The position numbers and the translations under genes are program-made. Of a stretch of DNA of 64,000 nucleotides, positions 1 through 61,975 are shown piece by piece. The notes under the pieces are model-generated. The model saw nothing but the letters and a program-made list of their open reading frames with translations, was not told the DNA's origin and ran no database searches. Source of the stretch: Emiliania huxleyi CCMP1516 (Eukaryota); NCBI RefSeq assembly GCF_000372725.1, contig NW_005201551.1, positions 156,520 through 220,519 of the forward strand. Reading direction: 5' to 3'. How positions within the stretch are numbered: the first letter of the stretch is position 1; every line of letters begins with the position of its first letter.

Positions 1-62
1 CCCCCCCCAACGGGGCCGCGAAGGGCGCCCGAGTCGAAGGCGCGGAGCCACCCAAGGCGCGG

Positions 63-790
63 GTGGGCGCGGGCTGCGCGGCGACGAGGTGGTGGACGCG
101 ATCCGACGCGCGGGCGTGGTTTTGCTGCCGGTCCACCTCGACGTCGCACGCCGCCAGGCGCGGCTGGTGGCGGCGCACGCCGCCCTCGACGCCAAGTACC
201 GAGAGGACAAGAAGACGTCGGTACTATTTCTTCGACAAGACTGGCCGGGCCTACCGCATCTACAACCCGAGAGGGCTGCACCCGGCGCATACATACCTTC
301 CGCTTACCGAATGGAGCTCGCGCAGCAATCTTCTACAACACGCTCAGCGCCGATACTCCGCGACGATTCACCATTCGGCCTGGAGGGAGATGCATGCGGC
401 GGCGGGCCGCGCAGGGAGGAGGGAGCAGGTGCGGTTTGTCTCGGCGAGCCAGTTCGGCGCGGGCGCGTTTTTGAACGCGATCCCGACCCGCGCGCACTTC
501 CGTCTGCCCTCGTACGTGCTGCGCTTCGCGCTGCAGCGCCGCTTCGGATTACACCTGTCGATGATGACGGACGTCATGGCGGACGGCATCTACAGCCAGC
601 ACGGTCTGCCCTTTGACGCCCTTGGCGACGTGGCGCAGAACGACGGCGCGGCGGGCCACCAGACGCGGCACAAGGAGGTCCTCCTGGACCTTGTCGAGCT
701 GCTGCGGGGCAAGCTGGGGCGCGGCGCGGTGGAGCACGAGTTTCACTGCGAGCACAGCACTACGACGGGGAAAGCGGTTGGGGGAGGGAA
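63..790 (+). mobile_element. Fragment of a CRE/R2-like (RLE-type) non-LTR retrotransposon ORF, C-terminal region
   Basis: Translation 'GAGAFLNAIP...FRLPSYVLRFALQRRFGL...DALGDVA...QTRHKEV' resembles the post-RT / pre-endonuclease segment of CRE-like elements. Recognised by eye; the fragment is truncated. Confidence 0.6.
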
Positions 791-1153
791 TGTTGATTTG
801 CACAAACGGGAATCCTGAATCTTTTTTAGTCAGCTACCTTATGGCGCATCCTGGGCGCTGGGGCCGCGCTCTCCCCACTCCCGGTCTCCCGTCCATCCCC
901 AGACCCCACCATCCCGTCGGCGTCGCGCGGGCCTGCGTAGACCGTAGTGTTAGCTGAGTTACCAGCGAGCGAGCGGAGAGGCCGGCGCGCAACGTACAAA
1001 GTTATCGCGCGGCGTCGCGCTGCCATGCCGCGACAGCCGACCCTCCCCCGCGCCCTGGGGGCTGGCGGGCGACCGGGGGTGGGGAGAGCGCGGCCCCGGC
1101 GGCCCGGCTGCGCCCTGGGGCCGCTGCCTCCTGTTGCTTCTGGATTCGCGTTT

Positions 1154-2185: not shown

Positions 2186-3490
2186 TCAGCAGAGGTGGAT
2201 GCCGCGCTCCTCGCACACGGCCACCAGCTCAGGCTGCTCCTTGTTGTCCACCATGAGCAACTGCACGCGAGGGGAGGTGCGATGAGCATTGGGCGGGGGG
2301 AGGGGCGAGTGGCGAGGGGGGGCGTCTCGCGCCTTCAGGCTCGGGGCGGCCCCCTCCTTGAGGGCGGCGGCCAGCGCCTTGCAGCCCTCGTCGCCAATCT
2401 TGTTGCTGTGGAGAGAGAGCTCCTCGAGCCGCGGCGCTGCCCCCTCCTTGCCGAGGGCGGCGGCCAGCGCCTTGCAGCCCTCGTCGCCAATCTCGTTGCC
2501 GAAGAGCTGGAGCTTCTCGAGCCGCGGCGCTGCCCCGCTCGCGAGGACCTCCGCCAGCTGCGCCGCCTCCGCGTCGCCCCAGCCGAGCTGGACGTAGAGC
2601 AGCTCGGTCGCCTTGCCAAACTGCTCCTCGAAGGCGGCCTCGTACAACCCCTTCACCAGCGGCTTGTCGTCCTTGCCGTTGGTGAAGCTCTTCGACTCCA
2701 GCTCCGCCGCGAACGCAGACGGCAGCAGCGGAGGGCGCCGGCCGCCGTCCTGGGTGCAGTCGGCTCGGAGGCTGTAGTACTCGTACTCCTTGCCGTCGTG
2801 CATCTTGCCGAGGTCGAGCGAGAGGTCGCCGTTCTTGGTCAGGCTGGCCCAAGAGCTCTCGGTGTAGCACCAGCCGCGGTCAAAGTACATGGCCACGTTG
2901 GTGCCCTCGGCCTGATCCTCCGCCTTGTGGCCGTCCGGAAAGGAGGTCAGCCGCAGCACGTATGTGTACGGGTGGGAGTAGAGCGTGCCGAGGCAGCCCA
3001 GCCCCTGCTTGAAGAGCGCGTTCTGCTCGTCGGTGCGCATGACGCGGTTGGCGGGGTCGGGGTGCTGGTGCAGCGAGCCGAAGTCCCAAAAGACGCCGAG
3101 CCGCGTGATCGTGCCGTAATTGTCAGTGAGCAGGGCCTTGAGCGCCCTCGCGACGCGGGCGAGGTTGGCTCCGCGCGGGTCGGGGTGGTCCTTGGTCAGC
3201 CACGGGTAGGAGAGCGCGGCGACTGGAAGCTCATACTTGGTCGCCTCGACGAGGTCGGCGAGGGAGAGGAAGGCCTCTTTGGGCAGCGCCTGGCGGTGGT
3301 TGAGGACGCCGCCCGCCCCGGCGTGGCTGATGATCCACTGCGCGTCGAGGAGGGCGACGGCGCCGCTCGCAAGGACCGGCTCCAGGTCGCCGCCACCGAG
3401 CTCGCGCCACCGCTTCAGCTTCTCCTTGTCCACTCTCCTTGTCCACGCCGAGGCACGTCTCTTCTCAAACCACGCGCGCATGGACAGCAT
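2186..3490 (-). CDS. HET-like (heterokaryon incompatibility/TIR-like) domain + RNI-type LRR protein, copy 1; one GC-AG intron at 2261-2332
   Basis: Motifs VAALSYPW, VFWDFGSLHQ, LYSH and YFDRGWCYTE occur in HET-domain order. They are followed by LRRs 'LEKLQLFGNEIGDEGCKALAAAL' and 'LEELSLHSNKIGDEGCKALAAAL'. The start is uncertain (ATG at 3490 or 3481). Confidence 0.8.
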   Translation of the reverse strand: MLSMRAWFEKRRASAWTRRVDKEKLKRWRELGGGDLEPVLASGAVALLDAQWIISHAGAGGVLNHRQALPKEAFLSLADLVEATKYELPVAALSYPWLTKDHPDPRGANLARVARALKALLTDNYGTITRLGVFWDFGSLHQHPDPANRVMRTDEQNALFKQGLGCLGTLYSHPYTYVLRLTSFPDGHKAEDQAEGTNVAMYFDRGWCYTESSWASLTKNGDLSLDLGKMHDGKEYEYYSLRADCTQDGGRRPPLLPSAFAAELESKSFTNGKDDKPLVKGLYEAAFEEQFGKATELLYVQLGWGDAEAAQLAEVLASGAAPRLEKLQLFGNEIGDEGCKALAAALGKEGAAPRLEELSLHSNKIGDEGCKALAAALKEGAAPSLKARDAPPRHSPLPPPNAHRTSPRVQLLMVDNKEQPELVAVCEERGIHLC

Positions 3491-4067
3491 CGCGATGGTG
3501 CTCAACAGCGGCTCGGACAGCGGCGGCCCGCCCAAACGTGAGCTCTGAGCTGAGGGCGTGTCGCGATTAAGGCGGGGTACTTGTACAAAAAGGACTAACA
3601 TACGGAAATGTGAGTGTGTGTGTGCACATACGGAAATGTTCGACTTAGGCTTAGGCCAAGCCTCTCTAACTTTAAACACGGACGGCGTCGACACCAGCTG
3701 TGCTCTATCCACTTTCGCACGCAGCCGCCGCCGCGATAGCAATAGCGCAACTGTTAGGCCCCAAATTAACGTTTGACAACCCTAGCGCGTGGTGTGTAGG
3801 CGTGTATAGGCTCAGGACTGTCAGCGCAGCGCGCCGTTTGAGTGAGGTGGGGCGGGATGGCGAAGAGAGAGATAGTGTCAGTAGCGGAGGAGTATGTTGG
3901 GAGGCCGTCTGGGTCTAGCTCGGCGCTGCCGTCGGTCGCGAGGCCAGTGACGTAAGCTGAAGAAATCTCGGGGACGGTGGGGTCTGATATGATTGGGTGA
4001 TGAATGACGGAGGAGATGCGAATTTGGGAGGGTATGGCTTCACTAGTCGTTGGAGTTAGCCGAATGA

Positions 4068-4577
4068 TCACGCGCGCGTGCAGTCGAACAGGATAAGGGA
4101 GGCACCTTTGCGACGCCGCGAATCCAGTCGATCTGCGCGCACGGCGGTAGAGCGAGGGTCGAGTCGATCGGCGTCCAGATGTCGTTCTGCAGGTCCTGAT
4201 ATGGCGCCTCCGGGTCGCAGCGGCTCTTGTGGTGCGCGTCGCGTACCAGTGGCGTGACGTTCTGAAGCCGGCGTAGCTGGCATTCGATGGACTGCACCGA
4301 GGCAAGCCTGCAGCTGCGTCTCCGCCTCCTCGCGCTCGTCGCAGGATCCACAGATCAGTCGGAGGTCGTCGAGAGCGTCGAGTCTTTTGAGAACCTTTTT
4401 CCATCGCCACTTGATTGCATCTTTGCTTCGTTTGGTGGCGGATTCAAACGGCCACTGCTCTGCCACCTTTGGCAACGAGATGCCGTCTCGGACGTGGCGC
4501 AGCAGCACGAAGGCATCCATCTCCGGACGCCACGGGACGGCGCTGTGCTTTGATCGGCCGGATGCGTGGACGGCCAT
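4068..4577 (-). pseudogene. Myb/SANT-like domain fragment inside a repeat-rich region
   Basis: 'PWRPEMDAFVL...LPKVAEQW...KRSKDAIKWRWKKVLK' has Myb-like W spacing. Confidence 0.4.
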
Positions 4578-4927
4578 GAGGCTGCGACGCAGAGCACCGG
4601 GAAGAGGTGAAATGTAGTCCTCTAACTTTAAACACGGACGGCGTCGACACCAGCTGTGCTCTATCTATCCACTTTCGCACGCAGCCCGCCGCCGCGAGCG
4701 TCCATTGGCTGATCTTGCCAAGGCCGGCACGAGCCTCGAGCTCCTCGCAACGATCCGTACGCCAAGCATCTCGCGGAGTGGCGCGACGTCGAGCTGCCTC
4801 GGTGGCAGAAGGAGCTCGAGCAGTGGGAGGCAAGCGATCAGGCGCTCCCAGCACCGAAACCGCGCCCACCACCGACGGTGAAGAGCAAGGGTCTGCAGCC
4901 CACTCCGCAGCGAGAGGCGGCATACGA
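4560..4927 (+). repeat. Dispersed repeat family A (inverted copy at 11218-11587; partial direct copy at 3663-3730)
   Basis: Near-identical 'ctctaactttaaacacggacggcgtcgacaccagctg...gcggcatacga' seen by direct comparison. Confidence 0.9.
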
Positions 4928-9642: not shown

Positions 9643-9695
9643 GGAGGGATTGACGTGAGAGCGAGCCTCGACAGCGCCTGATACTCGAGTATCTC

Positions 9696-10065
9696 TCGAG
9701 GTTCTCGAGGTGGATATCCTTTGGCCGCGTTGGGTAGCGAGGATTGGTGTAACCCGAGCCACGGAGGCGTGTTTTCTGACGGCCGACCGTCAGTGCACGG
9801 AGTTGCCCCTTCTCCGACTGCCCCGGCTAGTTCCCGAGGTCGCGCGGGAGTGACCCCTGCGTCCCCCGAGACCTAGCGCGGGTGGGTTGGAGGGGGCTCG
9901 CCCCGTTCCTCCCCATCGGGCCGCGTGAGCGGCCACGCCTCGCAGATTCGTTTTTCGCGCCTGGGTCAGGCGCGCGGGGCATCCCCCGGGTCGCTCGACC
10001 AGCGATCCGAAGAGTGGCCGCTATGCGAAGGAAAGAGTGGGGGCCTCGGGGTACGCCTCCGTCCG
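9696..10065 (-). mobile_element. Dispersed repeat family B, likely the 3' end of a retroposon (other copies at 22961-23061, 44637-44693, 61620-61975)
   Basis: All four copies share the boundary 'tcgaggttctcgaggtggatatcctttggccgcgttgggtagcgagg' and differ in length at the other end. Confidence 0.75.
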
Positions 10066-10071
10066 GCAGAA

Positions 10072-11217: not shown

Positions 11218-11587
11218 TCGTATGCCGCCTCTCGCTGCGGAGTGGGCTGCAGACCCTTGCTCTTCACCGTCGGTGGTGGGCGCGGTTTCGGTGCTGGGAG
11301 CGCCTGATCGCTTGCCTCCCACTGCTCGAGCTCCTTCTGCCACCGAGGCAGCTCGACGTCGCGCCACTCCGCGAGATGCTTGGCGTACGGATCGTTGCGA
11401 GGAGCTCGAGGCTCGTGCCGGCCTTGGCAAGATCAGCCAATGGACGCTCGCGGCGGCGGGCTGCGTGCGTAAGTTGATAGATAGAGCTCAGCTGGTGTCG
11501 ACGCCGTCCGTGTTTAAAGTTAGAGGTCTACATTTCACCTCTTTACCGGTGCTCTGCGTAGCAGCCTGCATGGTCCGTCCACACATG
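11218..11587 (-). repeat. Repeat family A, inverted copy
   Basis: Reverse complement of 4560-4927; its end is hidden by the gap. Confidence 0.9.
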
Positions 11588-13164
11588 CCGGGGGGGGGGA
11601 TCCGACCCCCGTCAGGGGGTGTCCGGCAAGGTAGGGGGGGGGTCCCGACCCCCCCAGAGGCTTCACCACATGCTAGGGGGGGGGTGGGGCGTGAGTAGAA
11701 GTGCGCCCCCCTCCCTGGAAGCGATGTCCGCCTGCTCTTCGACGACGTCGTCAACTGGCCGGTGGTCTTTCAGTGTGGTGAGGTGGGTTTCGTGACCGAG
11801 CGTCGATTGGCCTGTACGAGGGTTTCCGGCAACCCAGAGGGAAACCAGAGGGTCCCCAGCACTTTGCGTTTCCGGAGGTTTCCAGGGAAACCAGAGGGTG
11901 TTTGGTGCTCCATTCTGTTTCCTTGTCTGTCGTGTGAATCGTGCGTGTGCGAGAGCCTTTTGTTGTGAAATTCTGTTTCTCTCGAGTTTCCCTCGGGAAA
12001 CTCGCGAGTTTCCCTGAGTCTGAGAGCTGGTCTGGGGCAAAATCTGGGGCAAAATTGAGGAAATCGGCACGATACCCAGGTATTTTCCAGGTATACCGGG
12101 GTTTTCCAGGTATACCCGCAAAATACCCGGTATTTTGCCGATTTTGGCCCCAAAACAGCCTCAGACACGGCTCAGAGCCCCCCCAAAATGACAAATTCCA
12201 CGGAGTTTCCCCGGGGTTTCCCGAGGAAACTAGAGGGTGTTGTAGGGAAACAAGCAGGAAACACGGAAAGGAAACCAGGTAGGGTGCGAGAGGAAACCCT
12301 CGTACAGGCCAAAGCGTCGATGCCGCCTTACTTACCTGTTCCCCGCTGGCGCGACCCCGCGCCGGCCAGCGGAGCAATTGCCCGCTCAGTCACCACCCCC
12401 GCCGGCGCGACGCGATCCGATCGGCGCCGCCACCGACGGGGCCGCCGGCACGGAGTGCATTCTCCGTCGTTGCCGGTCGGGGTGTTGGTCGGGACATGGG
12501 CGACGCGACCTCTGCTCGGACCAAGAAAAATGAAAGCACGTGTGAAAAGTGAGAACGGAGTAGAGACGGTGCAGACGGTGCAGGCTCATTTCTGGAATCG
12601 TGTGTCCCCGAAGAAGCGGTCGAAAGCGCGTGTGAAATGTGAGAACCGAGTGGAGGCAGACGGATCAGAGACGTGCCGACAGCCTCCATCATCAGCCTCT
12701 GGAATGTCGCTCGCCCTGGACGCTGCGGAGCTCGCCAAGCTGCCCCCGCCGGAGGTCGACTCGGTCGAGAGCTCGCCCGTCGAGAGCTGCGACGAAGAGT
12801 ACGAGCGCTCCGCGGTCGCCGCGCTGATCGTGCTCAGCAGCCTCGCCGAGCAGCACGCGACCGCGCAGGGGGTGGTGCCGTGCCGCCGCACGCCGTCGAC
12901 GGAGTGGGAGTCGGCAGGCTCGCAGTCTGACTCGCCGCGCGTCGTTCGGCGCAAGCTGGGGGACGGTGCGGCCGCCTCTGCCCTCTGCAGCCGCGGCGAT
13001 GCGCAGACGCTCAAACACTCAAACCGCATCCAGCCGAGCCCTGCGCTGGTTCGGCGCCGCGCACGCGCACCGGCGGCCCGACGGCGTTCCCGCCCACGTC
13101 GCAGGCGGCTTCGCCCCCGGCGCACGCTTCCAGTGCCGGTATGGTACCGGCTCGATTTGTCCAG

Positions 13165-19560: not shown

Positions 19561-20301
19561 TGCACGCCCGGCGAGGTGGCGGGGGCGAGGTAGCGGGCGG
19601 CCACTAGGCCCGGAGCCAGCGCACTGCCACCGCGTCCCGCAGCGTGACATCCACCAGGTTCTTGTATTCCAGTGCGATCTTGTTTTCCCAGCTGGACGTT
19701 CGCCCTTGGGTATGCACCAGCAGGCGATCGCTCATGACCTCCCACGGGGCCCACCCCTTGGCGTGGTACATGTCAACCCATCTCACTAGGCCCAGCCCGA
19801 CAAGCCCCCTCGAGAAGACGACTCCCGGCCGCTCCCACACCACGCACCCCCCCCCGTCATCGGGTGCTCTCCATAGACGCCGATCCAGCGGCCAGCCGAC
19901 TTGTGTGTACTTGTTACGTGAAAACCCGCTGGGACCCGGACGCCAGCAGCCCAAGCGATGGGGGACAAGCACAGACTAGCCGTCGTCCACGTCGTCCCTC
20001 GGGTCCCTGCTGCTCCTGATCTGTTCGTGATTTGGATACTTGTCGCCACGTCTCCGGACCATATCTTTTTCGTGGTGCGCCTGTGTCCCTTGGTATTGCT
20101 AAAAATATATCCCGACCGCCACTATCGGAAAAGCACACTGGCACGGCCCGCCGCCTGCCGCCCGTGATGCGGGTTATTAGAGAAACAGAACACCCAGAGA
20201 GCGCGCGCACGCACACAAACAAAACGAAAGGATGACGGGCCAATGGCCAATAAATAAGAAGTCCGTAAGGCCTCCAAAATTCTTTAACTTCAGGCGCCGT
20301 A

Positions 20302-22224
20302 ATGTCGTCTTCTCCAGAGGCGTACAACACATACATGTCCCTCGGGGCGAGGAGCACCGCTGGCGTGATGAGCCGGCGCGCCGAGTACGGACGCGAAGAG
20401 CGGCGATGGCGGGGCGAGTCGCGACGGCGGTCGCGATCGCGTGAGCCGCGGGGCGACGAGCGTTGGCAAGGTGAGCAATGGCCGCACCATGACGGGCGGC
20501 AACACGAGCGGCGCGGCTACAACGACGCTTGGTGCGGAGGTCGCGAGCAGCGATGGCACGATGAGTCACAATGGCCCGATGAGCGCGAGCAACGGCCGCA
20601 TCATGACGGGCGGCATGACGAGCGACGCGGCTACGATGAACGTCGGTGCAGAGGCGAGCGCGAGCGCGGCTGGCACGATCGGCGCGATCACGATCCCAGG
20701 CGCGACCGACGCGGCGAGGGGCAGCCTCGGCACAGCGATGGCCGGGTGGGACCGCCCATGCACGGAGTGCAAGGACGCGACGAGCAGCAGAGCCGTCGCG
20801 ACGCACATGAGCGCCCCTCGTCTAGCGGCTCTGCTGCCGGTCAGCTCAACGCTAAGCAGCTCAGCAGCCACATCTCAAATGCTGGCAGCGCTGACGCATT
20901 GCTCGCGCTCTTTTCTGCCCACAGCGCGAACTTGAACCACATCCACGCTGCGAACCTGTGGAACAAACTGGGCAAGCAGCGCATCGAGCGGTGGCACGAG
21001 GAGCGGCTTGAGCAGCTGGTGCAGCGCACGCTTGACCTCGTCGCGTCATGCGAAGCACGCAATCTGGCGAACATCGCCCACGGCGTGGCAAAGTGCGGCC
21101 TGCAAGTAGGGGTTGTGCGTTCGCTGTACACGGCGGTGGCGGAGGCGGCGGTGCGCGGGGGGCTGGCTGGCTTCGACCCTCAGGCCCTAGCCAACACGGT
21201 GTGGGCGTATGCGACGGCGGGCGTGGCTGCAGACGCGCTGTACGAGGCGGTGGCGGAGGCGGCGGTGCGCAGCGGGCTGGCTGGCTTCATGCCTCAGAAC
21301 GTGGTCAACACGGTGTGGGCGTATGCGACGGCGGGCGTGGCTGCGGACGCGCTGTACGCGGCGGTGGCGGAGGTGGCGGTGCGCGGCGGGCTGGCTGGCT
21401 TCAAGCCTCAGGACCTGGCCAACACGGTGTGGGCGTATGCGACGGCGGGCGTGGCTGCAGACGCGCTGTACGCGGCGGTGGCGGAGGCGGCGGTGCGCGG
21501 CGGGCTGGCTGGCTTCAAGCCTCAGAACCTGGCCAACACGATGTGGGCGTATGCGACGGCGGGCGTGGCTACGGACGCGCTGTACGCGGCGGTGGCGGAG
21601 GTGGCGGTGCGCGGCGGGCTGGCCGGCTTTACGCCTCAGAACCTGGCGAGCACAGTGTGGGCGTATGCGACGGCGGGCCATTACCACCAGGCATTGCTTG
21701 CCGAGTGCTCGCGCGTGATCAGCGACTCGCTCGCGCGGGATCCGTCGAGGTGGAGCGAGGAGGACCGCCGTCAGCTGCACCAGTGGCAGCTCTGGCTCTC
21801 CCTTGAGCGAGGAGCAGACGGGCAGCAGCACCTCCTCTCCGATTCACAGCGCCAGCTCTGTCGCGACGCCATGCAACACACGCAAGTGACGATATCGCGC
21901 TTGCAGCGCTCGGTTGCAGCTGCCCTCGCCTCCGTCCAGTCTGGCTTCGAGGAGGAGTATCTCGAGCCGCGCACCGGCTACTCGCTCGACCTGGCGCTGC
22001 CCTCGTCACGCGTCGCGGTCGAGGTGGATGGCCCCTCTCACTTCCTGCTGCCCGACGGCCGGGGCGTACGCAAACCCAATGGGCCAACGCTGCTCAAGCG
22101 GCGCCTCCTCACGGCGGCTGGCTGGAGGGTGATCAGCGTTCCATTCTACGAGTGGAACGGCTTTGCGACAGCCAATGGGCAGCAGACCTATCTGGAGAGG
22201 GCGGTCGCTCCGCTCTTGGGCTAG
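20302..22224 (+). CDS. Intronless OPR-like 38-aa repeat protein with C-terminal RAP domain
   Basis: Five near-identical 38-aa (114-bp) units 'GLAGFxPQxLANTVWAYATAG...'. RAP motif 'GYSLDLA...VAVEVDGPSHF...KRRLLTAAGWRVISVPFYEW'. The true start may be downstream. Confidence 0.9.
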   Translation: MSSSPEAYNTYMSLGARSTAGVMSRRAEYGREERRWRGESRRRSRSREPRGDERWQGEQWPHHDGRQHERRGYNDAWCGGREQRWHDESQWPDEREQRPHHDGRHDERRGYDERRCRGERERGWHDRRDHDPRRDRRGEGQPRHSDGRVGPPMHGVQGRDEQQSRRDAHERPSSSGSAAGQLNAKQLSSHISNAGSADALLALFSAHSANLNHIHAANLWNKLGKQRIERWHEERLEQLVQRTLDLVASCEARNLANIAHGVAKCGLQVGVVRSLYTAVAEAAVRGGLAGFDPQALANTVWAYATAGVAADALYEAVAEAAVRSGLAGFMPQNVVNTVWAYATAGVAADALYAAVAEVAVRGGLAGFKPQDLANTVWAYATAGVAADALYAAVAEAAVRGGLAGFKPQNLANTMWAYATAGVATDALYAAVAEVAVRGGLAGFTPQNLASTVWAYATAGHYHQALLAECSRVISDSLARDPSRWSEEDRRQLHQWQLWLSLERGADGQQHLLSDSQRQLCRDAMQHTQVTISRLQRSVAAALASVQSGFEEEYLEPRTGYSLDLALPSSRVAVEVDGPSHFLLPDGRGVRKPNGPTLLKRRLLTAAGWRVISVPFYEWNGFATANGQQTYLERAVAPLLG

Positions 22225-22960
22225 TACTGTGCACACTGGCTCCCGTAGGGCGGCTCCCGTGGTGTGCCTGTGTTAGTCGAGGTCCTCCGTGTTCCTTTTA
22301 CCCATGTGTTAAATCCTTTTACCCGTGGTGTACCTTTATCCCCGTCCGCTCGTGCCTGCGAGCTGTGACCTGTGTCAGTGGCGCGGCTGGGTGCAGCGGC
22401 CGCGACAAGATGATGAGCCCCGGCGGCGCGGCACTCGAGGGGTGCCCTCTGCAGTGCAGTGCGCTTCAGAACGCGCAGGAGGGTAGAATCCTCCTCGAAC
22501 TTTTTCCAAAAGCGGCGGTCCGCGTCGGCCGTGCCGCCGAGCTGGTCGCCGGCTCGGCGAGACATGCTATGCACGCCCGCGCGCGTGGCGGTTGGTGTTG
22601 GGTCTGTTAGGTCCGCGACGAGCTCCGCTGACAGCACCAGTTCCTTCACCTCCTCCCACCGCCGCAGCCACCGCCCGCCGCCCAGAGCCCACAGGAAACG
22701 GTAAGCGCCGAGCCATCGAGGGCGTACCAACTTGCTCACCCAGCCTATCACTATATCCAAACCCGCCCCGCCTCCCGATTTCGCTGTGCCGTCTTTCCGA
22801 GCCGAGCCGTCCTCCGCCACGCCTCGTCAATCCATCCGCCGATATCGCCGACCCGCACCTTATCAATCAACCCATCAATCACCCTATGCCAAGCCTAGAT
22901 AATGCATACGAAGGACGACCAAACGACTGGGACACTAACGCGATGGGTGTGAGTGTGTTC

Positions 22961-23061
22961 TCGAGGTTCTCGAGGTGGATATCCTTTGGCCGCGTTGGGT
23001 AGCGAGGATTGGTGTGACGCGATCCACGCAGGCGTGGTTTCTGGCGGCCGACCGTCAGTGT
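22961..23061 (-). mobile_element. Repeat family B, about 100-bp copy
   Basis: Matches 9696-9796 and 61620-61720. Confidence 0.8.
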
Positions 23062-28551: not shown

Positions 28552-28601
28552 TGAGCGAGTGAGCGCCTCCCTTCGCATGTTAGTGTATTTTTTTTCTCGC
28601 G

Positions 28602-30020
28602 ATGTCCACCCCGCCGCGCCGCTCGCGCCGCCTCGCCCGAGCCACAGACGCTCCCTCGCCCAGGACGCCGCCGCCCACCCGCCTCCTCGACCTCCCCACG
28701 GACCTCCTCGCGCGCGTCCTCTCTCACTTCCACAGCCCCATCGACATCGCTCGCGTCGCGGCCGTCTCGCTGCTCTTCCACGCCTCGCTTGCGCTGGAGG
28801 GCGTCCGCTTGTGGGCGCAAGGGCGCGGCTACGAGCTGCCGGCGCAGCCAGAGGATGAGAGCTGCGCCGTGCGGTGGCTGTGCTATTCGGCGCTGCTGCG
28901 CGAGTCCAACCCGCCGGCGAGGGTGGCGGCAGGCAATATGCACAGCGTCTTCATCGGCGGCGAGGGGCTCTCGTCGTGCGGCTGCGCGCCGCATCACATC
29001 CCAGGCCTCCTTGGCCATGGTGAGGGCGTGGCACGGCTCAACACGCCGACCCGCCTCCCGTCGACGCTGGGCGGCGAGCGCGCCGTGAGCGTGTCGGTTG
29101 GAGCATGGCACAGCCTCGCCCTCACCGGCGGCGGCGCCGTTTGGAGCTGGGGCCAGGGAGGCTTGGGTGCGCTGGGCCACGGTGACCAGCAGGGCCAATG
29201 GCAGCCGAAGAAGGTCGAGGCATTTGATCGCCGCATCGTCGCCGTTTCGGCGGGATGTCACAGCCTCGCCCTTACCGCCGACGGAGCCGTCTTAAGCTGG
29301 GGCTATGGCCATCTGGGCCACGGCGAGCTGCAGCTGCAGCTGCTGCCGAAGGAGATCGAGGCCTTGGCTGGGAGGCGCGTCGTCGCGGTCTCGGCGGGAG
29401 GAGGTCACAGCCTCGCCCTCACCGCCGACGGCAGTGTCTGGAGCTGGGGCTACGGTGGCTTCGGCCAGCTGGGCCACGGCGACGGACAGAACCAGCTGCT
29501 GCCCAAGAAGATCGAAGCCTTTGCTGACCAGCGCGTCGTCGCTGTGTCGGCTGGAAACGACCACGGTCTAGAGGACCACAGCTTCGCCCTAACCGCTGAC
29601 GGAGAGGTCTGGAGCTGGGGCAGTGGCGCATCTGGCAAGCTGGGCCACGGCAACTCGCTGCGGCAACTGCTGCCCAAGAAGGTCGAGGCCTTTGCTGGGC
29701 AGTGCGTCGTCGCTGTGTCGGCGGGAGTGCGTCGCGGCCTCGCCCTCACCGCCAACGGCAGCGTCTGGACCTGGGGCTTTGGAGGGCGAGGCCAGCTGGG
29801 CCACGGTGAGACGCAGGACCAGCTGCTGCCCAAGAAGATCGAGGCCTTGGCCGGCCAGCGCGACGTCGCTGTGTCGGCTGGAGGCGACCTCAGCTTCGCC
29901 CTCACCGCTGACGGCGCCGTCTTTGCCTGGGGCAGGGGCGACCTCGGCTGCCTAGGCCACGGAGAGGACCTGTCGGACCAGCTGCTGCCCAAGAAGATCG
30001 AGGCGTGGGTGCGGGACTGA
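28602..30020 (+). CDS. F-box + RCC1-repeat protein (intronless)
   Basis: F-box 'LLDLPTDLLARVLSHF...DIARVAAVSLLFH'. About 7 RCC1 repeats 'VAVSAGxxHSLALTADGxVWSWGxGxxGQLGHG'. Confidence 0.92.
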   Translation: MSTPPRRSRRLARATDAPSPRTPPPTRLLDLPTDLLARVLSHFHSPIDIARVAAVSLLFHASLALEGVRLWAQGRGYELPAQPEDESCAVRWLCYSALLRESNPPARVAAGNMHSVFIGGEGLSSCGCAPHHIPGLLGHGEGVARLNTPTRLPSTLGGERAVSVSVGAWHSLALTGGGAVWSWGQGGLGALGHGDQQGQWQPKKVEAFDRRIVAVSAGCHSLALTADGAVLSWGYGHLGHGELQLQLLPKEIEALAGRRVVAVSAGGGHSLALTADGSVWSWGYGGFGQLGHGDGQNQLLPKKIEAFADQRVVAVSAGNDHGLEDHSFALTADGEVWSWGSGASGKLGHGNSLRQLLPKKVEAFAGQCVVAVSAGVRRGLALTANGSVWTWGFGGRGQLGHGETQDQLLPKKIEALAGQRDVAVSAGGDLSFALTADGAVFAWGRGDLGCLGHGEDLSDQLLPKKIEAWVRD

Positions 30021-33214: not shown

Positions 33215-35541
33215 AATGGACCAGGGCGGAGTGGGGCAGCATGGACCAATACAGGCAAACGGGGAAGGGGGGGGGGGACTTTTGCCGCCAGCTGCCCAGC
33301 CCCTGCCGCATAGCGCGCATATTTCCTTTGCTCTCCCCTTGAGTTCCCGCAGCCAGCTGAGCCCGCCTCGCGCCCCTGCACATACTCCCTGCTCCATTTC
33401 GTGCCAGGCGCCCTCCGCAACGGCCCTCGCGGTGCTGGGCGCCGAGGCGCTCGGCTCCTCGCAGGGCGCGAGCCCCTGCAACCGCGCGCCCTCCGCCACC
33501 AGCGCCTCCGGCAGTGAGACATCGACAACCTCTTCACAGTCTTCGGACGGCACCGCGGACCTACCCGAGGTTGGCGCCGCGCCGTCGAGCTGCAGCGGTA
33601 CGTGCGTATGGGACCCAGCCACGGTCGGCGAGTCGAGCGAGACGCCGCTCGAGGACTACCTCGGCCGCGCCAGGCGCCCCTGGGGAGGGGCCCGGGGAGA
33701 GGGAGGGGGGAGAAGAGATCTCGCCCCGCGAATTAATGATTCTGTTTGGCCACGTGGCCCGCGCCAGGCGCCTTGGGGAGGGGCCGGGGAGAAGGAGGGG
33801 GGAGAAGAGATCTCGCCCCAAGATGAATACAATGAATGATTACTGTATTGGCCACCTCGCCCGCGCAGGCGCCCCCGGGGGGGGGGGGGGGGAGTATCGC
33901 TCCCCGAGATTGACATTAATAGAACTCTGTTATTACAACCGCAGGAGCGACCTCTCGGACTCCCGCCTGCGGAGCGTGTGGGAGGAGGCCGCCCTATCGG
34001 CCCTTCAGTCCAGCAAGGGAGACCACGCCGCGGCGCTGGCGGCCTTGCGGCTCGAGGAGCAGGCGGCGGCGGCGTCGCTCTTCTCTTCGGACGAGGTGGA
34101 TGAGCTCCGGTCGCTGCACGCGCGCTTCGGCGGCACCGACCTACGCCTCGTCACGAGGGCGCTCGGCGGGCGCCGCTCATTGGCCGAGGTCGTCGCGGCG
34201 GCATACAGATGTTTGCCTGCCCTGCGGAGAGACACGGACGTGGAGACGGTCTCGCTGCGTAGCCCACGCCAGCCGTCGCTTGCGCGGGCCTCCGTCGCGC
34301 GGGCCTCTGTCGACTCGCTCACCTCACTCGGCGCGATGATGGCGCACCGGCTGATCGAGGCTGCCCCCGCGGCCCTCTCCGTCGAGGCCGCCTCCGGCGA
34401 GTGGCTGCTCGCCGACTTGTGCGACGACGGCACGATTCTGCACTTGCCGGTCGATGGCGGCGTGCCGCAGCGATTTCGATCTCCCGGCGGGTTCGTCCGC
34501 TTCCTTCGCCCGTGGTTGAGCGCGGCTTCAGTGGAGGGGGGAAGCTGGACGGCGGTGCACTACAAGGGTTTGCCGCTCGACCTGATCCGCAAAGCCGCCA
34601 CCAGCGATGCAGACGCGTTGGGCGCGGTTGCCGCCGCCTCCGGTTCCCCCTCTGACGGCCGCGAGCCCACGCCACTCTCGCCCGGCGGCGCCGCCGCCAG
34701 CCAGCTTCGCCAAGCCTTACACGCCTCCTACCTGTTGGAGCGACGCACCGACGGCGCGCACGAACGATTGCTAGTGGACGACGCGGAGTTGGAGACGTAC
34801 GAAGTGGATTGCATCCTCGATCGCCGCCGCTCCAAACGCATGGACGGCGGAGCCTACGAGTACTTGGTATCGTGGGCGGGCTACGGCCCGGCGGACAATA
34901 CGTGGGAGCCGCGCGAATCCCTGCTGTGCCACGAATTGGTGGAGACGTTTGAGCTGGCGTTCGAGGCGCGTCGGCCCGCCGCCTCCCGCAGCCACGCCCG
35001 CCCCGCCGGCAACCGCGGTCGCGGTTCCTCGTCGCCGTGCCAGCCGAGGAGGCTTCCGAAAAAGAGGGAGCATGTTGCCAAGCGACGCGCCTCGCCGCCG
35101 CAGCCCTCCCGCGTGAGCAAGGCCGCGCGGGTGCCGGCGGTGGCGCCGGTCGTGGACCTCGTGGCGCTCGCAGCCAAGGAGCGGGAGGAGCAGCGCCGCC
35201 CTTGCATGTGCAGCGCGCCCTGCCGGCTGCAGCCGCTGATTGAGTCTGGTTGCATCGTGGCCGGCTCCCTCGCGCTCTCCGTGTGCATCAAGGGCGCGCT
35301 CACGTCCGCCGATGTGAGCGAGACCGGCGCGATCCGGCTCCCCTCCTCTTCGGGCGGCGGCGAGCTGCTCGAGCTCCAGACTCCATGCGCGCTGCTCCGC
35401 GTGGCACGCCGCCGCGCGGGCGTCGCCGTCGACAAGGGGCCGAGCGCCCGGACGACTGTGTTTTACAAGGGCGTCAGCCTCAACGCGCTTGCGCAGCCTG
35501 GCCAGGTGCGACGCGACCGCCGCAGCCGCGCGGCGACCTAA
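33215..35541 (+). CDS. Chromatin protein: ELM2/SANT-like + RAMA-like + chromodomain + second RAMA-like; GC-AG intron at 33674-33944
   Basis: Chromo: 'YEVDCILDRR...YEYLVSWAGYGPADNTWEPRESL'. SANT-like: 'FSSDEVDELRSLHARFGGTDLRLV'. RAMA-like: 'ADLCDDGTI...FRSPGGFV...WTAVHYKGLPLD' and 'ADVSETGAI...TTVFYKGVSLN'. Start uncertain. Confidence 0.8.
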
Positions 35542-38161: not shown

Positions 38162-41100
38162 TGCCGCCGCCGCCGCCGCCACCGCCGTCACCACCCGGAC
38201 ATTGCCAAGCATGGTGCTCTAGCAATACCAACAGGCGCGCCGCTTGCTGCGCCTTCAACCCGCCACTCCCAGACCTCACCCTGCACGCTGCGTTAGACCG
38301 GGGTCCCTGCAATTGGCGCGATGGAGCCCTAACTCGATGCCCTTCCCCGCCATAGCTGGTCGAAGAAGTGCAACTGGGCCGGATGCCCCGCCTGCAGCGA
38401 CTGCTCCGCCGTCGCGAGGCAATCAACCGCCACGTGCAAAGCGCACTGCCCCTTCGAGAACTACCCGTGGGCTGTCAAGTTTGTCGCCAGGAGACCCCTA
38501 CAAGAAAGGTGCCAGTAGATACGTCCACCCCTCCTGATGCGTGTTTCAGGTGTACCTGGGCCGGCTGCAGTGGATGCTCTCCCGAATGCTCGGACTCGAG
38601 CTTGGCATCCACCCTGCCGCCTCCGTCACCCTCGCCCTCGGCGACGGGCGGCGCGTGCATGCCGCACTGCCCATTTGAGAAGCACCCATGGACCGTCAAG
38701 TGCGGATGGAAGGGCTGTAGTGGATGCGTGCCTGAGTGTGTCGCTCCTCCCTCCCCACCCCCCTCATCCTCACCTGCGCCGCCACCCCCCTCGCCCACAC
38801 CGCCTCCGTCGGCCTCCCCAACGCCACCACCATCACCCTCGTCGCCACCACCGTCACCCTCGTCGCCACCACCACCGCCCTCGTCACCGCCGCCGTCGCC
38901 AGGACCAGCGCCTCCCCCGCCGTCTGCCTCGCCGACTCCACCGTTGCCATCACTACCACCGCCGCCTTCGCCGCCTCTGCCCTCACCGATGCCCTCACCA
39001 CCACCACCCTCGCCCTCTCCGCCACCACCCTCACCCGTGCCGCCGCCGCCGCCGCTGGCGCCACCACCCTCGGCATTACCTTCACCCCCACCACTGCCCT
39101 CGCCGCCTCCGCACACCTCCCCGTCGCCACCGCCCCCATCCGCCTCCCCTTCCCCACCGCCCTCCGCCTCGCCGTTGCCTCCGCCTTCTGCATCCCCGAT
39201 GCCACCCTCCGCGTCACCGTCTCCACCGCCACCCAGCCCGGCGCCACCGTCTCCATCGCCTCCATCGCCGTCACCGCCCCCACCAACGCCCGCATACCCG
39301 GTTCAAATGTCGCCACCTCCATCAACGCCTCCCGTGGTCGTCGCTGACGACGATCTTGTGATGTGCTGCTTTGCCATGATTGCGAGCTGCCTGGCTTGCT
39401 CTGCCGGCGTGAGCGTGAGCGAGTACTGTGAGTCGAACCCAAAGGTTGATGGTTGCGAGGAGGCTTCTCCGCCGCCGTCGCCCAACCCGCCGGCATCGAT
39501 GAGCTGCAGCATTCCCGTCTCCACGCGGCCTCAAGAGTACTGCGCTGATCGGCCTCCGCTATGGCAAGGGGTTAAGCAAGGGGGCACGGCGGCGTGTAAG
39601 AAGTACTGCGAGGGCTTTCCCGGCTGCAAGTTCTTTGCGTCGTGGGCGGCAACCAGCTGGTGCTCGATACGCAGCGGACCGGGCGCTGGTGCGGGCTTCC
39701 CAGCTCTCTTTCAAAGCACCCTCTGCGAACAGGTGCCGGCTGGTCGCAAGCTGCGACCGGGTGTGGGAGTCGTCGACGGACGACATCGTCGCAATGGGAT
39801 GCGCGCTGGTCGCGCCTCGAGAGCCTCCGCCGCCCCCGTCGCTGCCACCGCCACCCGCAGACCCACCAGTCGAGTCCCCGTCACAGCCTCCACAACCGCC
39901 GCCCGGGCCCCCGCCTTCCCCGATGAACCTCCGCAACATCTTTTGGATCATCGCCGATGACCTCCGACCGCAGCTCGGCGTGTACGGCTCTCCGGAGATC
40001 AAGTCGCCCAACATCGACGCGCTGGCGGCCGACAGCACCCTCTTCGAGCGAGCGTACTGCCAGGTGCAGCCGCCCTCGATAGAGAAATGTGGCCCGTTGT
40101 GGACGCGGTTCATTGACCTCTGCTTGCACATGACGTGTGGAGTGGCAGGGCGCTTCCGTGGCTTTTGGTGAGGAGACCTCTACCTTTCGCCAACCATAGG
40201 TGCCCACTTGCGGTGCCTCGCGCGCGAGCATGTTGACTGGGCTGTATGCATCGCCGACCCGCTTCATCAACTTCAACACTCGCGCGGACCAGGACGCGGC
40301 CAACGTGCCAGATGTGGCGAAAACATTTCGGATGGCCGGGTGCAGCGCGTGGCGACAGGGTCACAGCATGGGCGAGACGTGATTGCCGCGACTCTGCGAT
40401 AGGTACAAGGCCATCTCCAACGGCAAGATCTACCACCACAGTGGCGACAACAAGGAGTCGTGGGACGAGGTCTGCGGTCACGACGCTGGCAGCATCGACG
40501 GACTGCCTTGTAACTACACCGCACGGCCAGGCTCGATGTGCTGGTGTGAGCTTCAGTCTGAGACAGCCATTGCCAAAAGCCGTTCCCTACGGCCCTCTTG
40601 CACCCCACTGTATCGTCTCCCTTCGAGTCCGCCCATTTCCTCCGGCCCTGGATTCAATTAACCCCCCCCCCTTTTCAACCAAGGCCCCCCCCCCCCCCCC
40701 TTTCCCCAACAGCATCTGGCCACAGAGAGGCCAAACCCGCAAGGGGCTCGCCAAGGCTACGGTCTGCCCTGCATTCGTGTCGGGTGGATTGATATGTAGC
40801 ACCTGTTCACAGCGAACACTGTAAGTAGGCCAACTCGGATGGATCGTTGGAGAACGAGCGGGAGAGTGGCAAGCAACTTCGGGCATACGTCAAGACACTG
40901 CAGGGCAGCGCACGCTTTCAGGCATGCCTCTGGTGCGAATCTCGCCGACATCTCGACAATCTCGGTTCAGCGTCAGCTTTGATCGTATCAGGCGAACGGA
41001 CAGGGCCAGTGCTTTGGGTGTGGCTGGCCCGCATGGAGTGGGACCGACGTGCACGACGACGGCCTTGTCGAGCGCGGCTACCCCGACGGCAAGATGGTTG

Positions 41101-42044
41101 TCAAGATCTTCAACGACCTCCGGGTCGCAAAAGTGGAGGCAAAGCCCTTCTTCATCACGTGCGGCTTCGTGCGGCCGCACCTTCCCTTTGTTGCGCCGCT
41201 AAGGGATTGGGAGGCGTACGAGAGGGCCGATGTTCAAGTGCCGCCGTGGGGCAACAACCGCATCGCCGAGGGGGCGCCCCCACGGGCACTGCACTACCGC
41301 GAGCTCGGCGTCTACGACGTTGGCACGAACCCCGTGACGGACAACTCAGGAGGGTACCTCATGCCCGAGTACGGGCTGGGCAATCCGCTCTCGGAGGAGA
41401 TCTCGCGCTCGCTTGTGCATGGCTACTACGCGACGGTAACCTACGTTGACCGGCTCGTTGGGCACGTCATTGGCGAACTCAAGTCACTCGAAATGTACGA
41501 CGAGACGATCATCGTCTTCAACAGTGACCACGGCTATCAGCTGGGCGAGCACGGCACGTGGTGCAAACACTCACTTTTCGAGACGTCGCTGCGCATCCCG
41601 CTCTTCATCAAGGCGCCGGGCATCGCCCCGTCGCGCGTGCCGGCGCTCGTGGAAAATGTCGACATATACCCCACCCTGCTCGACCTCGTCGGGATCGCAG
41701 CGCCACCGCACCTCCACGGCAAGAGTCTCGTTCCAGTCATGCGCGATCCCAGCGCACCCCACAAGGGCCCCGTCTTTGCCCGCTACCGCGACGGCGACTC
41801 GGTGCGCTTTCCGGACCTCGCGTACAGCGAGTATTGCCTGCGGAACTGTTGGTCTCCCGAGACCTGCTCTCAATACTGCGCGACTCCGCACCCCACCGAC
41901 CGCATGCTCTACGACCATACAATCGACCCCAACGAGGACCTCAACCGATGGAACACAGGGTGGAACCGATCGCAATACGCCGGGCAGATCCACGAGATGC
42001 GTGCCGCGCTCGACAGGCACCGGCGCGAGAGGGATCGCGCATAG
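37718..42044 (+). CDS. Cys-rich / Pro-rich (extensin-like) stalk fused to an iduronate-2-sulfatase-like S1 sulfatase, multi-exon
   Basis: 'NIFWIIADDLRP...SPNIDALA...FERAYCQ|VPTCGASRASMLTG', 'GFVRPHLPF' and 'SDHGYQLGEHGTWCKHSLFE'. A Pro-rich tract is in frame directly upstream. 5' extent uncertain. Confidence 0.8.
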
Positions 42045-42179: not shown

Positions 42180-42379
42180 GCGGATTGGTAGAGCTCAATC
42201 TTTTCAAGGAGGGGGCCGCCCCGAGCTTGAAGGCGCGAGACGCCCCCCCCTCGCCACTCGCCCCTCCCCCGCCCAATGCTCATAGCTCCTCCCCTCGCGT
42301 GCAGACGCTCGTCGTGGGCAACAAGGAGCAGCCTGAGCTGATGCCCGTGTGCGAGGAGCGCGGCATCAAGCTGTGCTGA
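42180..42379 (+). pseudogene. 3' fragment of a third HET-LRR family member
   Basis: 'KEGAAPSLK|intron|TLVVGNKEQPELMPVCEERGIKLC*' is homologous to the ends of the genes at 2186 and 60305, including the GC-AG intron. Confidence 0.8.
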
Positions 42380-42934
42380 GCCTCTCCAGCCGCGAGCGGC
42401 AACCAAGACCCTCGACGGGCGGCCCGCGGCAGAGTCCAGAGAGAGCTGGGGCCAGCGCGCGCAGCGGTCTCTATGGGGCTTATGCACATGCACATATACC
42501 GCTGAAGTGTTCGTCTCTGAGACCGAGAGAGGCTGATTCCGCTGGGAGTGCGTAATTTCTTTCGGTTGCCTCGATTTTAAAGCCCGCCCCGCGTGCTCGA
42601 TGCGCGTGAAGCCGTACACATGAGAGAGAGAGAGCGCGCGTAGGGCCCTTAATTAGGGGCCTAGAGAACACAAGTCACAACCCCCTCTCCCTTTTCTCCC
42701 AGTGTAAGCCGCAAAGCGTAAAGCTAAAGGTACCCGCCCCTGGGGGGCCCATTCTTCATACCCATGGGGGATTTTCCCCCAAACGGGACAGTACATGCCC
42801 CCCTGATGGGCATGGCATTTCCAGCAAGCCCCCCCCCCCCCCCCCCCAGCGTATGGGGCCATATCTTGAGAGATCCCCGCTGCGCTGCGCTCTCCTGGAG
42901 CGGACTGCCGACGCGACTAGCCTGCTCAACGCCT

Positions 42935-44636: not shown

Positions 44637-44693
44637 TCGAGGTTCTCGAGGTGGATATCCTTTGGCCGCGTTGGGTAGCGAGGATTGGTGTGA
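44637..44693 (-). mobile_element. Repeat family B, shortest copy
   Basis: Same terminal sequence as 9696, 22961 and 61620. Confidence 0.8.
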
Positions 44694-44944
44694 GGCTGAC
44701 TAGCTTTTGGTTGAAATAAAATGTCTGCGCTCCCGTAGTTCGCACTCGTTCCTCTGCGAGTCAACGCACAACGGACCGCAAGGCGCGAGACACACACAAC
44801 ACCCGTACTCTCCCGCACCATCTCCGTCGCTCGGTTGCTCAGCCATACCACCTCAGGGAGGCGGCCAGGGCTCTACATAGACTCGCTCGGTCGAAAGAGC
44901 CCCAGACAGATTGGCACCCATGCCTCTCTCTACATGTACATCTT

Positions 44945-60304: not shown

Positions 60305-61484
60305 TCAGTAGAGGCTGATACCGCGCTCCTCGCACACGGCCACCAGCTCAGGCTGCTTGTTGCCCACCCAGAGCACCTGCACGCGAGAAGAGGTGCGACG
60401 AGCATTGGGCGAGAGAGGGGCGTGTGGCGAGGGGGGCGTCTGGCGCCTTCAAGCTCGGGGCGGCCCCCTCCTTGAGGGCGGCGGCCAGCGCCTTGCAGCC
60501 CTCGTCGCCAATCTTGTTGCCGTTGAGATAGAGCGTCTCGAGCCGCGGCGCTGCCCCGCTCGCGAGGACCTCCGCCAGCTGCGCCGCCTCCGCGTCGCCC
60601 CAGCCGAGGTTGATGTAGTGCAGCTCGGTCGCCTTGCCAAACTGCTCCTTGAAGGCGGCCTCGTACAGCTGCTTCACCAGCGGCTTGTCGTCCTTGCCGT
60701 TGGTGAAGCTCTTCGTCTCCAGCTCCGCCGCAAACGCAGACGGCAGCAGCGGAGGGCGCCGGCCGCCGTCCTGGATGCAGTCGTTGGTGAGGCTGATGAA
60801 GCCGTACTCCTTGCCGGCGCGCATCTTGCCGAGGTCGAGGGAGAGGTCGCCGGCCTTTGTCAGGCTGGCCCAGCTGGCCTCGGTGTAGCACCAGCCGCGG
60901 TCAAAGTACTTGGCCACGTTGGTGCCCTCGGCCTGATCCTCCGCCTTGTGGCCGTCCGGGAAGGAGGTCAGCCGCAGCACCCAAGTGTGCTGGTGGGAGT
61001 AGAGCGTGCCGAGGCAGCCCAAACCCTCCTTGAAGAGCGCGTTCTGCTTCTTGGTGCGCATGACGCCGTTGGGGGGGTCGGGGTGCTGGTGGAGCGAGCC
61101 GAAGTCCCAAAAGACGCCGAGCCGCGTGATGAAGTAATTCGCTAGCAGGGCCTTGAGCGCCCTCGCGACGCGGGCGAGGTTGGCTCCGCGCGGGTCGGGG
61201 TGGTCCTTGGTCAGCCACGGGTAGGAGAGCGCAGCGACGGGAAGCCAGTCATACTCGGTGGTCGCCTCGATGAGGTCGGCGAAAGAGAGGAAGGCCTCTT
61301 TGGGCAGCGCCTGGCGGTGGGTGAGGACGCCGCCCGCCTCGGCGTGGCGGATGATCCACTGCGCGTCGAGGAGGGCGGCGGCGCCGCTCTCGAGGACACG
61401 CTCCAGGTCGCCGCCGCCGCGCTTGCGCCACAGCTCCAGCTTCTCCTCGTAGGCCAGGCCCGGCTTGCTCGTGCCGCAGCCCAT
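60305..61484 (-). CDS. HET-like domain + LRR protein, copy 2; N-terminal MGCGTS acylation motif; GC-AG intron at 60377-60446
   Basis: Highly similar to 2186-3490. Splicing the 70-nt GC-AG intron restores the homologous C-terminus VLWVGNKQPELVAVCEERGISLY*. Confidence 0.85.
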
Positions 61485-61619
61485 CGCTTCGCCTGCCTGT
61501 GTAAGGCCGATCGACTTTGAGCACCTGTCAACAGCGGCTCGGGCAGCGGCCGCGGCCGCAAACGTGAGCTGAGGGCGTGTCAAGATTGTTTGAGGATTGT
61601 TTGCGATTTTGGTTGAATC

Positions 61620-61975
61620 TCGAGGTTCTCGAGGTGGATATCCTTTGGCCGCGTTGGGTAGCGAGGATTGGTGTGACGCGATCCACGCAGGCGTGTTTTC
61701 TGGCGGCCGACCGTCAGTGCACGGAGTTGCCCCTTCTCCGACTGCCCCGGCTAGTTCCCGAGTTTCGCGGGAGTGACCCCATGCGTCAAACCCGAGACCT
61801 AGCGCGGGTGGGTTGGAGGGGGCTCGCCCCGTTCCTCCCCATCGGGCCGCGTGAGCGGCCACGCCTCGCAGATTCGTTTTCGCGCCTGGGTCAGGCGCGC
61901 GGGGCATCCCCCGGGTCGCTCGACCAGCGATCCGAAGAGTGGCCGCTATGCGAAGGAAAGAGCGGGGCCCTCGAC
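61620..61975 (-). mobile_element. Repeat family B, long copy
   Basis: Near-identical to 9696-10060. Confidence 0.85.

What the first reader, a model, noticed from the sequence alone, without database searches (positions are those of the whole stretch)
2186..3490. HET-like effector fused directly to LRRs: candidate algal immune or allorecognition receptor family
Seen: two full paralogues 58 kb apart (2186-3490 and 60305-61484) plus a fragment (42180-42379). They have ALSYPW / FWDFGSLHQ / RGWCYTE motifs followed by RNI-type LRRs, with no NACHT/NB-ARC P-loop visible. Established: fungal HET domains (PF06985) are TIR-related cell-death effectors, usually part of NLR-like proteins. Inference: a minimal sensor-effector family expanded in this alga, possibly acting in virus defence or programmed cell death.
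Basis: partly seen in the sequence, partly recalled or inferred. Interest (0 to 1): 0.75.

Follow-up and report, generated by a model that had tools for sequence, protein, structure and literature searches.

The report
Fast-evolving algal TIR-like LRR receptors
These are two intact, spliced genes of a large, previously unclassified family in a bloom-forming coccolithophore alga that join a predicted TIR-like enzyme domain directly to a few leucine-rich repeats whose exposed positions are under strong positive selection, so they are likely immune receptors that would detect viruses or other invaders without the ATPase switch of classical NLR receptors.

The parts
2186..3490 (-). Copy 1 gene: exon 1 3490-2333, intron 2332-2261, exon 2 2260-2186; 410 aa after splicing
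   Evidence: exact 72-nt skip with CT..GC ends in run X14, and an exact 157-nt piece over the start codon
2615..3418 (-). Copy 1 N-terminal domain (aa 25-292), no Pfam family; its TIR/NDT-like core is about aa 88-244 (window 2759-3229)
   Evidence: model pLDDT 96.8; structure matches span model residues about 60-225; no Pfam hit
2858..2860 (-). Glu211 of RGWCYTE, predicted catalytic glutamate, in helix 206-215 after the third core strand
   Evidence: 99% conserved in 137 sequences; secondary structure; catalytic role inferred from TIR enzymes
2333..2614 (-). Copy 1 LRR region: one degenerate and two canonical 31-aa RI-type repeats with hypervariable, positively selected exposed positions (aa 296-301, 326-331)
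2261..2332 (-). GC-AG intron of copy 1 (72 nt, in frame, so it is hidden inside the open frame)
60305..61484 (-). Copy 2 gene: exon 1 61484-60447, intron 60446-60377, exon 2 60376-60305; 369 aa after splicing
   Evidence: zero depth over 60369-60435 in 3 of 4 runs and an exact 99-nt piece at 60810-60908
61464..61484 (-). MGCGTSK N-terminus of copy 2, a predicted myristoylation/palmitoylation signal (motif meaning recalled); copy 1 lacks it
   Evidence: sequence; MG..C in 25 of 45 Met-starting close homologues and in 20 of 128 representatives against 0.79 expected
60630..61481 (-). Copy 2 N-terminal TIR-like domain
   Evidence: family profile match, E 3e-124
60447..60635 (-). Copy 2 LRR region: one degenerate and one canonical repeat
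42180..42394 (+). 5'-truncated relic: end of the last LRR, intron, last exon and 15 bp of 3' flank; no TIR-like domain

Best explanation
These are intact, spliced members of an expanded gene family that fuses a predicted TIR-like domain directly to a short, positively selected LRR array, and they are likely intracellular immune sensor-effectors that work without a nucleotide-binding switch. Proposed working: (1) shown: the family multiplies as gene-sized units and diversifies the exposed LRR positions and several loops of the N-terminal domain while conserving the core. (2) Inferred: those variable positions form the surface that binds a foreign, fast-evolving ligand such as a viral or bacterial protein. 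(3) Inferred: many members, including copy 2, are held on the inner face of a membrane by N-terminal acylation. (4) Inferred: binding relieves inhibition or clusters the protein and switches on a TIR-type N-glycosidase centred on Glu211, which cleaves NAD+ or a related nucleotide. (5) Inferred: the result is NAD+ loss and death of the infected cell, or an ADP-ribose-type signal. My odds per step: TIR/NDT-superfamily fold 0.9, nucleotide-cleaving enzyme 0.7, recognition of a biological antagonist 0.75.
Against: No enzymatic activity, ligand or phenotype is shown. Structure scores are low: Foldseek gives nothing at E<=0.001 (best 0.19) and Z never exceeds 5.3, a level the tool says may reflect only a common arrangement; the top rows are deoxyribosyltransferases, not TIRs. 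No Pfam HET or TIR hit in any scan. None of 36 family gene ids is found in the supplementary table of genes changing during EhV infection and resistance (positive control), although that study used another strain and best-hit labels. Only 1-2 canonical LRRs are present, a small surface for a receptor, and 11 of the 16 sites called positively selected lie in the N-terminal domain, several in indel-rich loops where alignment is unreliable. The selection set is only 8 sequences, about half of the informative site pairs are incompatible at any distance, and I fixed the LRR positions after seeing the entropy profile. Copy 1 lacks the acylation motif. The bacterial context rests on two loci. How fungal HET domains kill is itself unknown.
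Confidence: 0.6

Rival explanations
1. Targeted enzyme rather than receptor: the LRR and variable loops pick a foreign substrate, and the TIR/NDT-like domain directly modifies or cleaves it (base exchange, ADP-ribose transfer or removal) without killing the cell.
For: The best structure rows are nucleoside deoxyribosyltransferases. Variable or selected sites flank the glutamate (209, 212) and sit at the third core strand (175, 177). The LRR array is very short.
Against: Deoxyribosyltransferase and TIR rows are tied within 1 Z unit. Separate lineage expansions with swapped accessory domains (EF-hand, Sel1, ubiquitin, ankyrin, kinase) suit a signalling or effector module at least as well.
Confidence: 0.17
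2. Self/non-self (allorecognition or mating) determinants, as in fungal het genes.
For: Resemblance to HET-type domains and rapid diversification of a C-terminal specificity part, as in het-B.
Against: Dozens of paralogues in clusters rather than a few balanced alleles. Even in fungi only 4 of 132 Podospora HET genes act in incompatibility. Vegetative cell fusion is not known to me in this alga (recalled). No partner gene was seen among the neighbours scanned.
Confidence: 0.06
3. Non-immune membrane or calcium signalling enzymes (for example producing an ADP-ribose messenger) whose expansion reflects environmental sensing.
For: EF-hand fusions in 5 of 46 homologues scanned; acylation-like N-termini; expression in several runs and studies; no family id among infection-regulated genes.
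Against: Omega well above 1 on the LRR face is hard to explain without a changing biological opponent.
Confidence: 0.12
4. Selfish or neutral repeat cargo: copies are multiplied passively and are decaying.
For: A truncated relic lies in the same window, an interspersed repeat starts about 130 bp upstream of copy 2, and some database models are partial or broken.
Against: Shared DNA ends within about 100 bp of the coding sequence in the close loci compared. The core is under purifying selection (omega 0.12), the intron is kept and spliced, and copy-specific pieces occur in expressed-type runs.
Confidence: 0.03

Closest known systems
Fungal HET-domain proteins (Pfam PF06985), especially NBD-less het-B/BH of Podospora anserina (PMC10890737)
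   Same: N-terminal TIR-related domain of similar size (about 270 aa here, 220-240 aa for HET per PMC12881547), conserved glutamate, lineage-specific expansion, variable C-terminal specificity domain without an NBD
   Different: No Pfam HET hit. The sensor is an RI-type LRR, not a lectin fold or WD/TPR/ANK repeats behind a NACHT. Acylation-like N-terminus. Occurs in algae and other protists.
Plant TNL receptors and animal NLRs
   Same: TIR-like effector at the N-terminus; C-terminal LRRs with positively selected exposed positions; apparently clustered, fast-turnover family
   Different: No NB-ARC/NACHT; only 1-2 canonical LRRs in the window copies (0-11 in close homologues); the domain is not detected by TIR profiles and has extra N- and C-terminal helices
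G. huxleyi TIR proteins induced in EhV infection and resistance (PMC12489294)
   Same: Same organism group; same order of three sequence boxes ending in the glutamate
   Different: Those were found by Pfam TIR profiles, are TIR-only or membrane-spanning, and are stated to carry no NBS or LRR. This family is not among them by gene id.
TIR NADases and nucleoside 2'-deoxyribosyltransferases (SARM1, SpbK, SPARTA TIR-APAZ, NDT)
   Same: Best structural neighbours of the core (about 100-125 aligned residues, rmsd 3.3-4.8); glutamate predicted in the equivalent helix
ROCO-LRR candidate immune receptors of brown algae (PMC11378527; search listing only)
   Same: Diversified LRR repertoire proposed as algal immune receptors
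   Different: GTPase switch and exon shuffling there; a TIR-like domain, no NTPase and LRRs within one exon here

Membership tests
HET domain (PF06985) | Match to the Pfam HET profile | tested here: not met
   0 of 2 window proteins at E<=1, 0 of 53 alignment members at E<=5, 0 of 46 at E<=0.01, 0 of 17 at E<=3, 0 of 3 at E<=1
HET domain (PF06985) | Three conserved blocks spanning the TIR betaA to alphaC region | tested here: inconclusive
   Three boxes in order in 100 of 138 representatives. PMC4986451 section 16 describes three blocks, but its figure was not visible and the HET motifs are recalled. No HET sequence could be obtained for a profile-profile test.
HET domain (PF06985) | Domain sufficient to induce cell death | not testable with these tools
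   needs expression assay
TIR/STIR clan (Pfam TIR, TIR_2, SEFIR and kin) | Match to a Pfam TIR-clan profile | tested here: not met
   no such family listed
TIR/NDT structural superfamily | Flavodoxin-like alpha/beta core | tested here: inconclusive
TIR/NDT structural superfamily | Conserved glutamate in the helix after the third strand | tested here: met
   E211 99% in 137 sequences, in helix 206-215 after strand 177-180; the residue-level superposition was not printed by the tools
TIR NADases | NAD+ cleavage on self-assembly | not testable with these tools
   needs biochemistry
NLR/STAND receptors | Central NACHT or NB-ARC P-loop NTPase | tested here: not met
   No Walker A in either copy; a Walker-A-like string in 2 of 214 domain-spanning homologues, neither with a Pfam NTPase hit
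NLR/STAND receptors | C-terminal repeat sensor under diversifying selection | tested here: met
RI-type LRR | Pfam LRR_6 repeats with beta-alpha units | tested here: met
   31-aa spacing in 32 of 42 intervals; best PDB sequence hits are ribonuclease inhibitors

The most novel reading that the evidence does not exclude
A widespread, unrecognised class of NBD-less 'resistance genes' in marine algae: membrane-anchored TIR-like NADase-LRR receptors, independently expanded in haptophytes and dinoflagellates, whose variable surfaces recognise giant-virus proteins gene-for-gene and so set the strain-specific host range of EhV that shapes coccolithophore bloom collapse.
Probability: 0.25. Interest if true: 0.9.

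Novelty: new variant of a known kind. Interest (0 to 1): 0.7.

Why it matters
How microalgae detect giant viruses, and why resistance is strain-specific, is an open question. The 2025 study of G. huxleyi resistance found TIR genes but stated that they carry no LRR or NBS (PMC12489294, section 20). This family escapes Pfam and is labelled 'hypothetical' or NLR-like in databases, yet shows the evolutionary signature of pathogen receptors. It supplies concrete, testable candidates (alleles, a glutamate mutant, an acylation mutant). It also defines an unclassified TIR-like domain with 2,587 clusters at 50% identity, which could help settle how HET-like domains work.

Tried and rejected
Whole-genome census: no genome held, so counts are lower bounds from capped hit lists. 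Folding the whole protein: Foldseek hits were all LRR proteins, so the domain was refolded alone. PDB sequence search with the domain profile: 1 hit, E 0.42, unrelated; with the bacterial relative: 3 chance hits. ESM Atlas: only unnamed haptophyte clusters at 0.91-0.92 and no named cluster. PADLOC and NCBIfam: nothing meaningful for the window domain. Viral relatives: none in phage records, IMG/VR or BFVD at E<=0.001; plasmids gave none with the window core. Prokaryotes: 1 of 29 pattern candidates in GTDB and 1 of 401 genomes of that phylum. Attempts to obtain a real HET sequence for a profile-profile comparison failed: 0 of 401 genomes and 0 viral matches to a recalled motif. Homodimer prediction with NAD gave no verdict (score 0.00, alignment not used); it is no evidence either way. 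The run search listed no holder on record as RNA; one polyA run was added by species label and laid. Simple counting gave a gene-wide omega of 0.91, but the codon-frequency-aware fit gave 0.33 because GC3 is 93%, so I rejected the counted ratios (about 5) in favour of the ML value 3.3. Fusions to ECM29 and XPB helicase (P0124, P0125) are single records and probably merged gene models; not used. Earlier scan notes: nothing found.

Full report
Observation. The window is about 65% G+C with assembly gaps. The named close relatives of the finding's protein are Emiliania (Gephyrocapsa) huxleyi models, the best at 80-85% identity, so the source is that alga or a very close relative; no whole genome was held. 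Each has a GC-AG intron near the 3' end, which gives 410 and 369 residues and restores a shared C-terminal cap. The piece at 42180-42379 is a plus-strand relic of the last LRR end, intron and last exon. A profile of the domain finds only two places in the six frames of the window.

Real genes, not cargo. A polyA run laid on copy 1 gave 156 reads, 147 fitting only in part (paralogues), nearly all in the orientation of the spliced reads, with joints at the donor site. Contigs of run X14, whose type is not on record but which shows spliced joints, contain the exact 72-nt skip and an exact 157-nt piece across the start codon. On copy 2 the intron bin is empty in 3 of 4 runs, and an exact 99-nt piece covers 60810-60908. 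This shows family-level transcription and splicing, and makes expression of these copies or near-identical ones likely; it says nothing on level. Against 79 metagenome loci, shared DNA with the window copies ends within about 100 bp of the coding sequence, apart from interspersed repeats shared by L007 and copy 2's upstream region.

Family and range. The capped lists name 36 EMIHUDRAFT models and 2 further UniRef E. huxleyi clusters at 90% identity (only the best 120 of 178 and of 408 hits were shown). Equal contig lengths suggest local clusters of 4, 3, 3 and 2 models. The domain alone hits 2,587 clusters at 50% identity (best 150 seen). In a tree of 213 domains, 29 of 30 E. huxleyi-labelled sequences (both window copies counted) form one clade of 75 tips with support 1.0, the other 46 being unnamed; Isochrysis (3 of 3) and Prorocentrum (6 of 6, with 4 unnamed) form their own clades. 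Of 214 domain-spanning proteins, 176 have at least one canonical LRR behind the domain and 2 have a Walker-A-like string. A Pfam scan of 46 mostly long homologues found EF-hand, Sel1, ubiquitin, ankyrin and kinase partners but no NACHT or NB-ARC. Two bacterial relatives were found: one in a Thermoanaerobaculia genome about 850 bp from MAD4 and MAD3 anti-phage genes, and one on a Pseudanabaena plasmid between vWA/AAA and TPR genes.

Selection. Among 51 close proteins, 8 of the 10 exposed LRR positions have 2.4-3.8 bits of entropy in a nearly constant scaffold, and loops of the N-terminal domain vary as much. For codon tests I kept 11 of 79 loci with long, stop-free, non-duplicate matches and used the 6 that are over 78% identical to copy 1, plus the two window copies. 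With codon-frequency correction, omega is 3.3 at the 10 xxLxLxx codons, 0.12 in the core and 0.33 elsewhere; M2a beats M1a by 102.6 and sites, 5 in the LRRs and 11 in the domain. Homoplasy is high, but pairwise estimates exceed 1 in 28 of 28 pairs (1.97 for the two window copies), and 40 recombining simulations with neutral LRR sites never exceeded 1.7. Caveats: few sequences, mixed strains, positions fixed after seeing the entropy profile, and unreliable alignment in indel-rich loops.

Membrane signal. Copy 2 begins MGCGTSK. An MG..C start occurs in 25 of 45 close Met-starting homologues and in 20 of 128 distant representatives, against 0.79 expected from composition. Reading this as myristoylation plus palmitoylation is recalled knowledge. 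Copy 1 lacks it, and neither copy has a transmembrane-strength segment.

Link to infection. None of 36 family ids appears in the supplementary workbook of the EhV time course (control). Four regulated genes there carry LRR_6; one (best hit EMIHUDRAFT_231496) rises about 6.8 log2 units in three comparisons, and I could not tell whether it belongs to this family. That study used another strain and best-hit labels, and receptors need not be induced, so this is weak evidence against a virus-induced role.

Mechanism and rivals. Shown: architecture, splicing, expansion, purifying selection on the core and positive selection on exposed positions. Inferred: ligand binding by the variable surface, membrane anchoring, activation of a Glu211-dependent N-glycosidase, and a death or signalling outcome. 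I give 0.6 to an immune sensor-effector, 0.17 to a targeted enzyme acting on foreign substrates, 0.12 to non-immune signalling, 0.06 to allorecognition and 0.03 to cargo.

Literature seen. PMC4986451: passages and section 16; it already reports HET homologues in Haptophyceae, including one E. huxleyi protein. PMC12489294: passages, section 20, searches of the xlsx supplement and its last part; the PDF supplement was not read and the txt file could not be read. PMC10890737, PMC10197012, PMC9153377, PMC12881547, 10.64898/2026.09.21.753143 and 10.64898/2026.10.11.758280: passages only. 10.64898/2026.04.30.722052: passages and section 5; its closed supplement may list members of this family among uncharacterised TIR clades, which would lower novelty. 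PMC11378527: listing only. Ten full-text searches showed no description of this TIR-like-LRR family in what I read; subscription journals are mostly outside the library.

Verdict. A real, expressed, rapidly diversifying family with an unclassified TIR-like domain fused to a minimal LRR. It is a new variant of TIR/HET sensor-effectors, not a Pfam HET member and not an NLR. Function is inferred but directly testable. Interest 0.7.

Noticed in passing
window 61618-61988 (also 9694-10067, 22959-23060, 44637-44696): Interspersed repeat starting about 130 bp upstream of copy 2, heavily covered by polyA reads with many loose ends, so it is embedded in many transcripts.
   Followed up: partly
window 1-800 (+): Open frames resembling the C-terminal end of a non-LTR retrotransposon protein (recalled resemblance; no Pfam hit), next to an assembly gap.
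   Followed up: partly
window 28584-30020 (+): F-box plus RCC1 repeats, another repeat-based substrate-recognition architecture; not tested for diversification.
   Followed up: no
window 20269-22224 (+): RAP-domain/FAST-like protein with internal 114-bp repeats.
   Followed up: no
window 33361-35541 (+): RAMA domain plus chromodomain in one frame, a possible chromatin or modified-DNA reader.
   Followed up: no
window 40983-42044 (+): Sulfatase gene ending about 135 bp before the relic fragment.
   Followed up: no
L080 4821-5870 (+) and 6718-8648 (-): Bacterial relative of the domain beside MAD4 and MAD3 of a MADS anti-phage locus; a candidate undescribed defence gene.
   Followed up: partly
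L082 4593-5732 (+): Pseudanabaena plasmid protein WP_126390537.1 with the same three boxes, flanked by vWA, AAA ATPase and TPR genes.
   Followed up: partly
L009 324-758 and L015 212-646; L040; L045: A second, divergent (29%) copy of the domain upstream of the main gene in L009 and L015, and two copies within about 3 kb in L040 and L045; possible paired or tandem genes.
   Followed up: no
window 3664-3736, 4620-4697, 11448-11525: Short dispersed repeat upstream of copy 1, part of a 370-bp repeat shared by 4558-4927 and 11218-11591.
   Followed up: no
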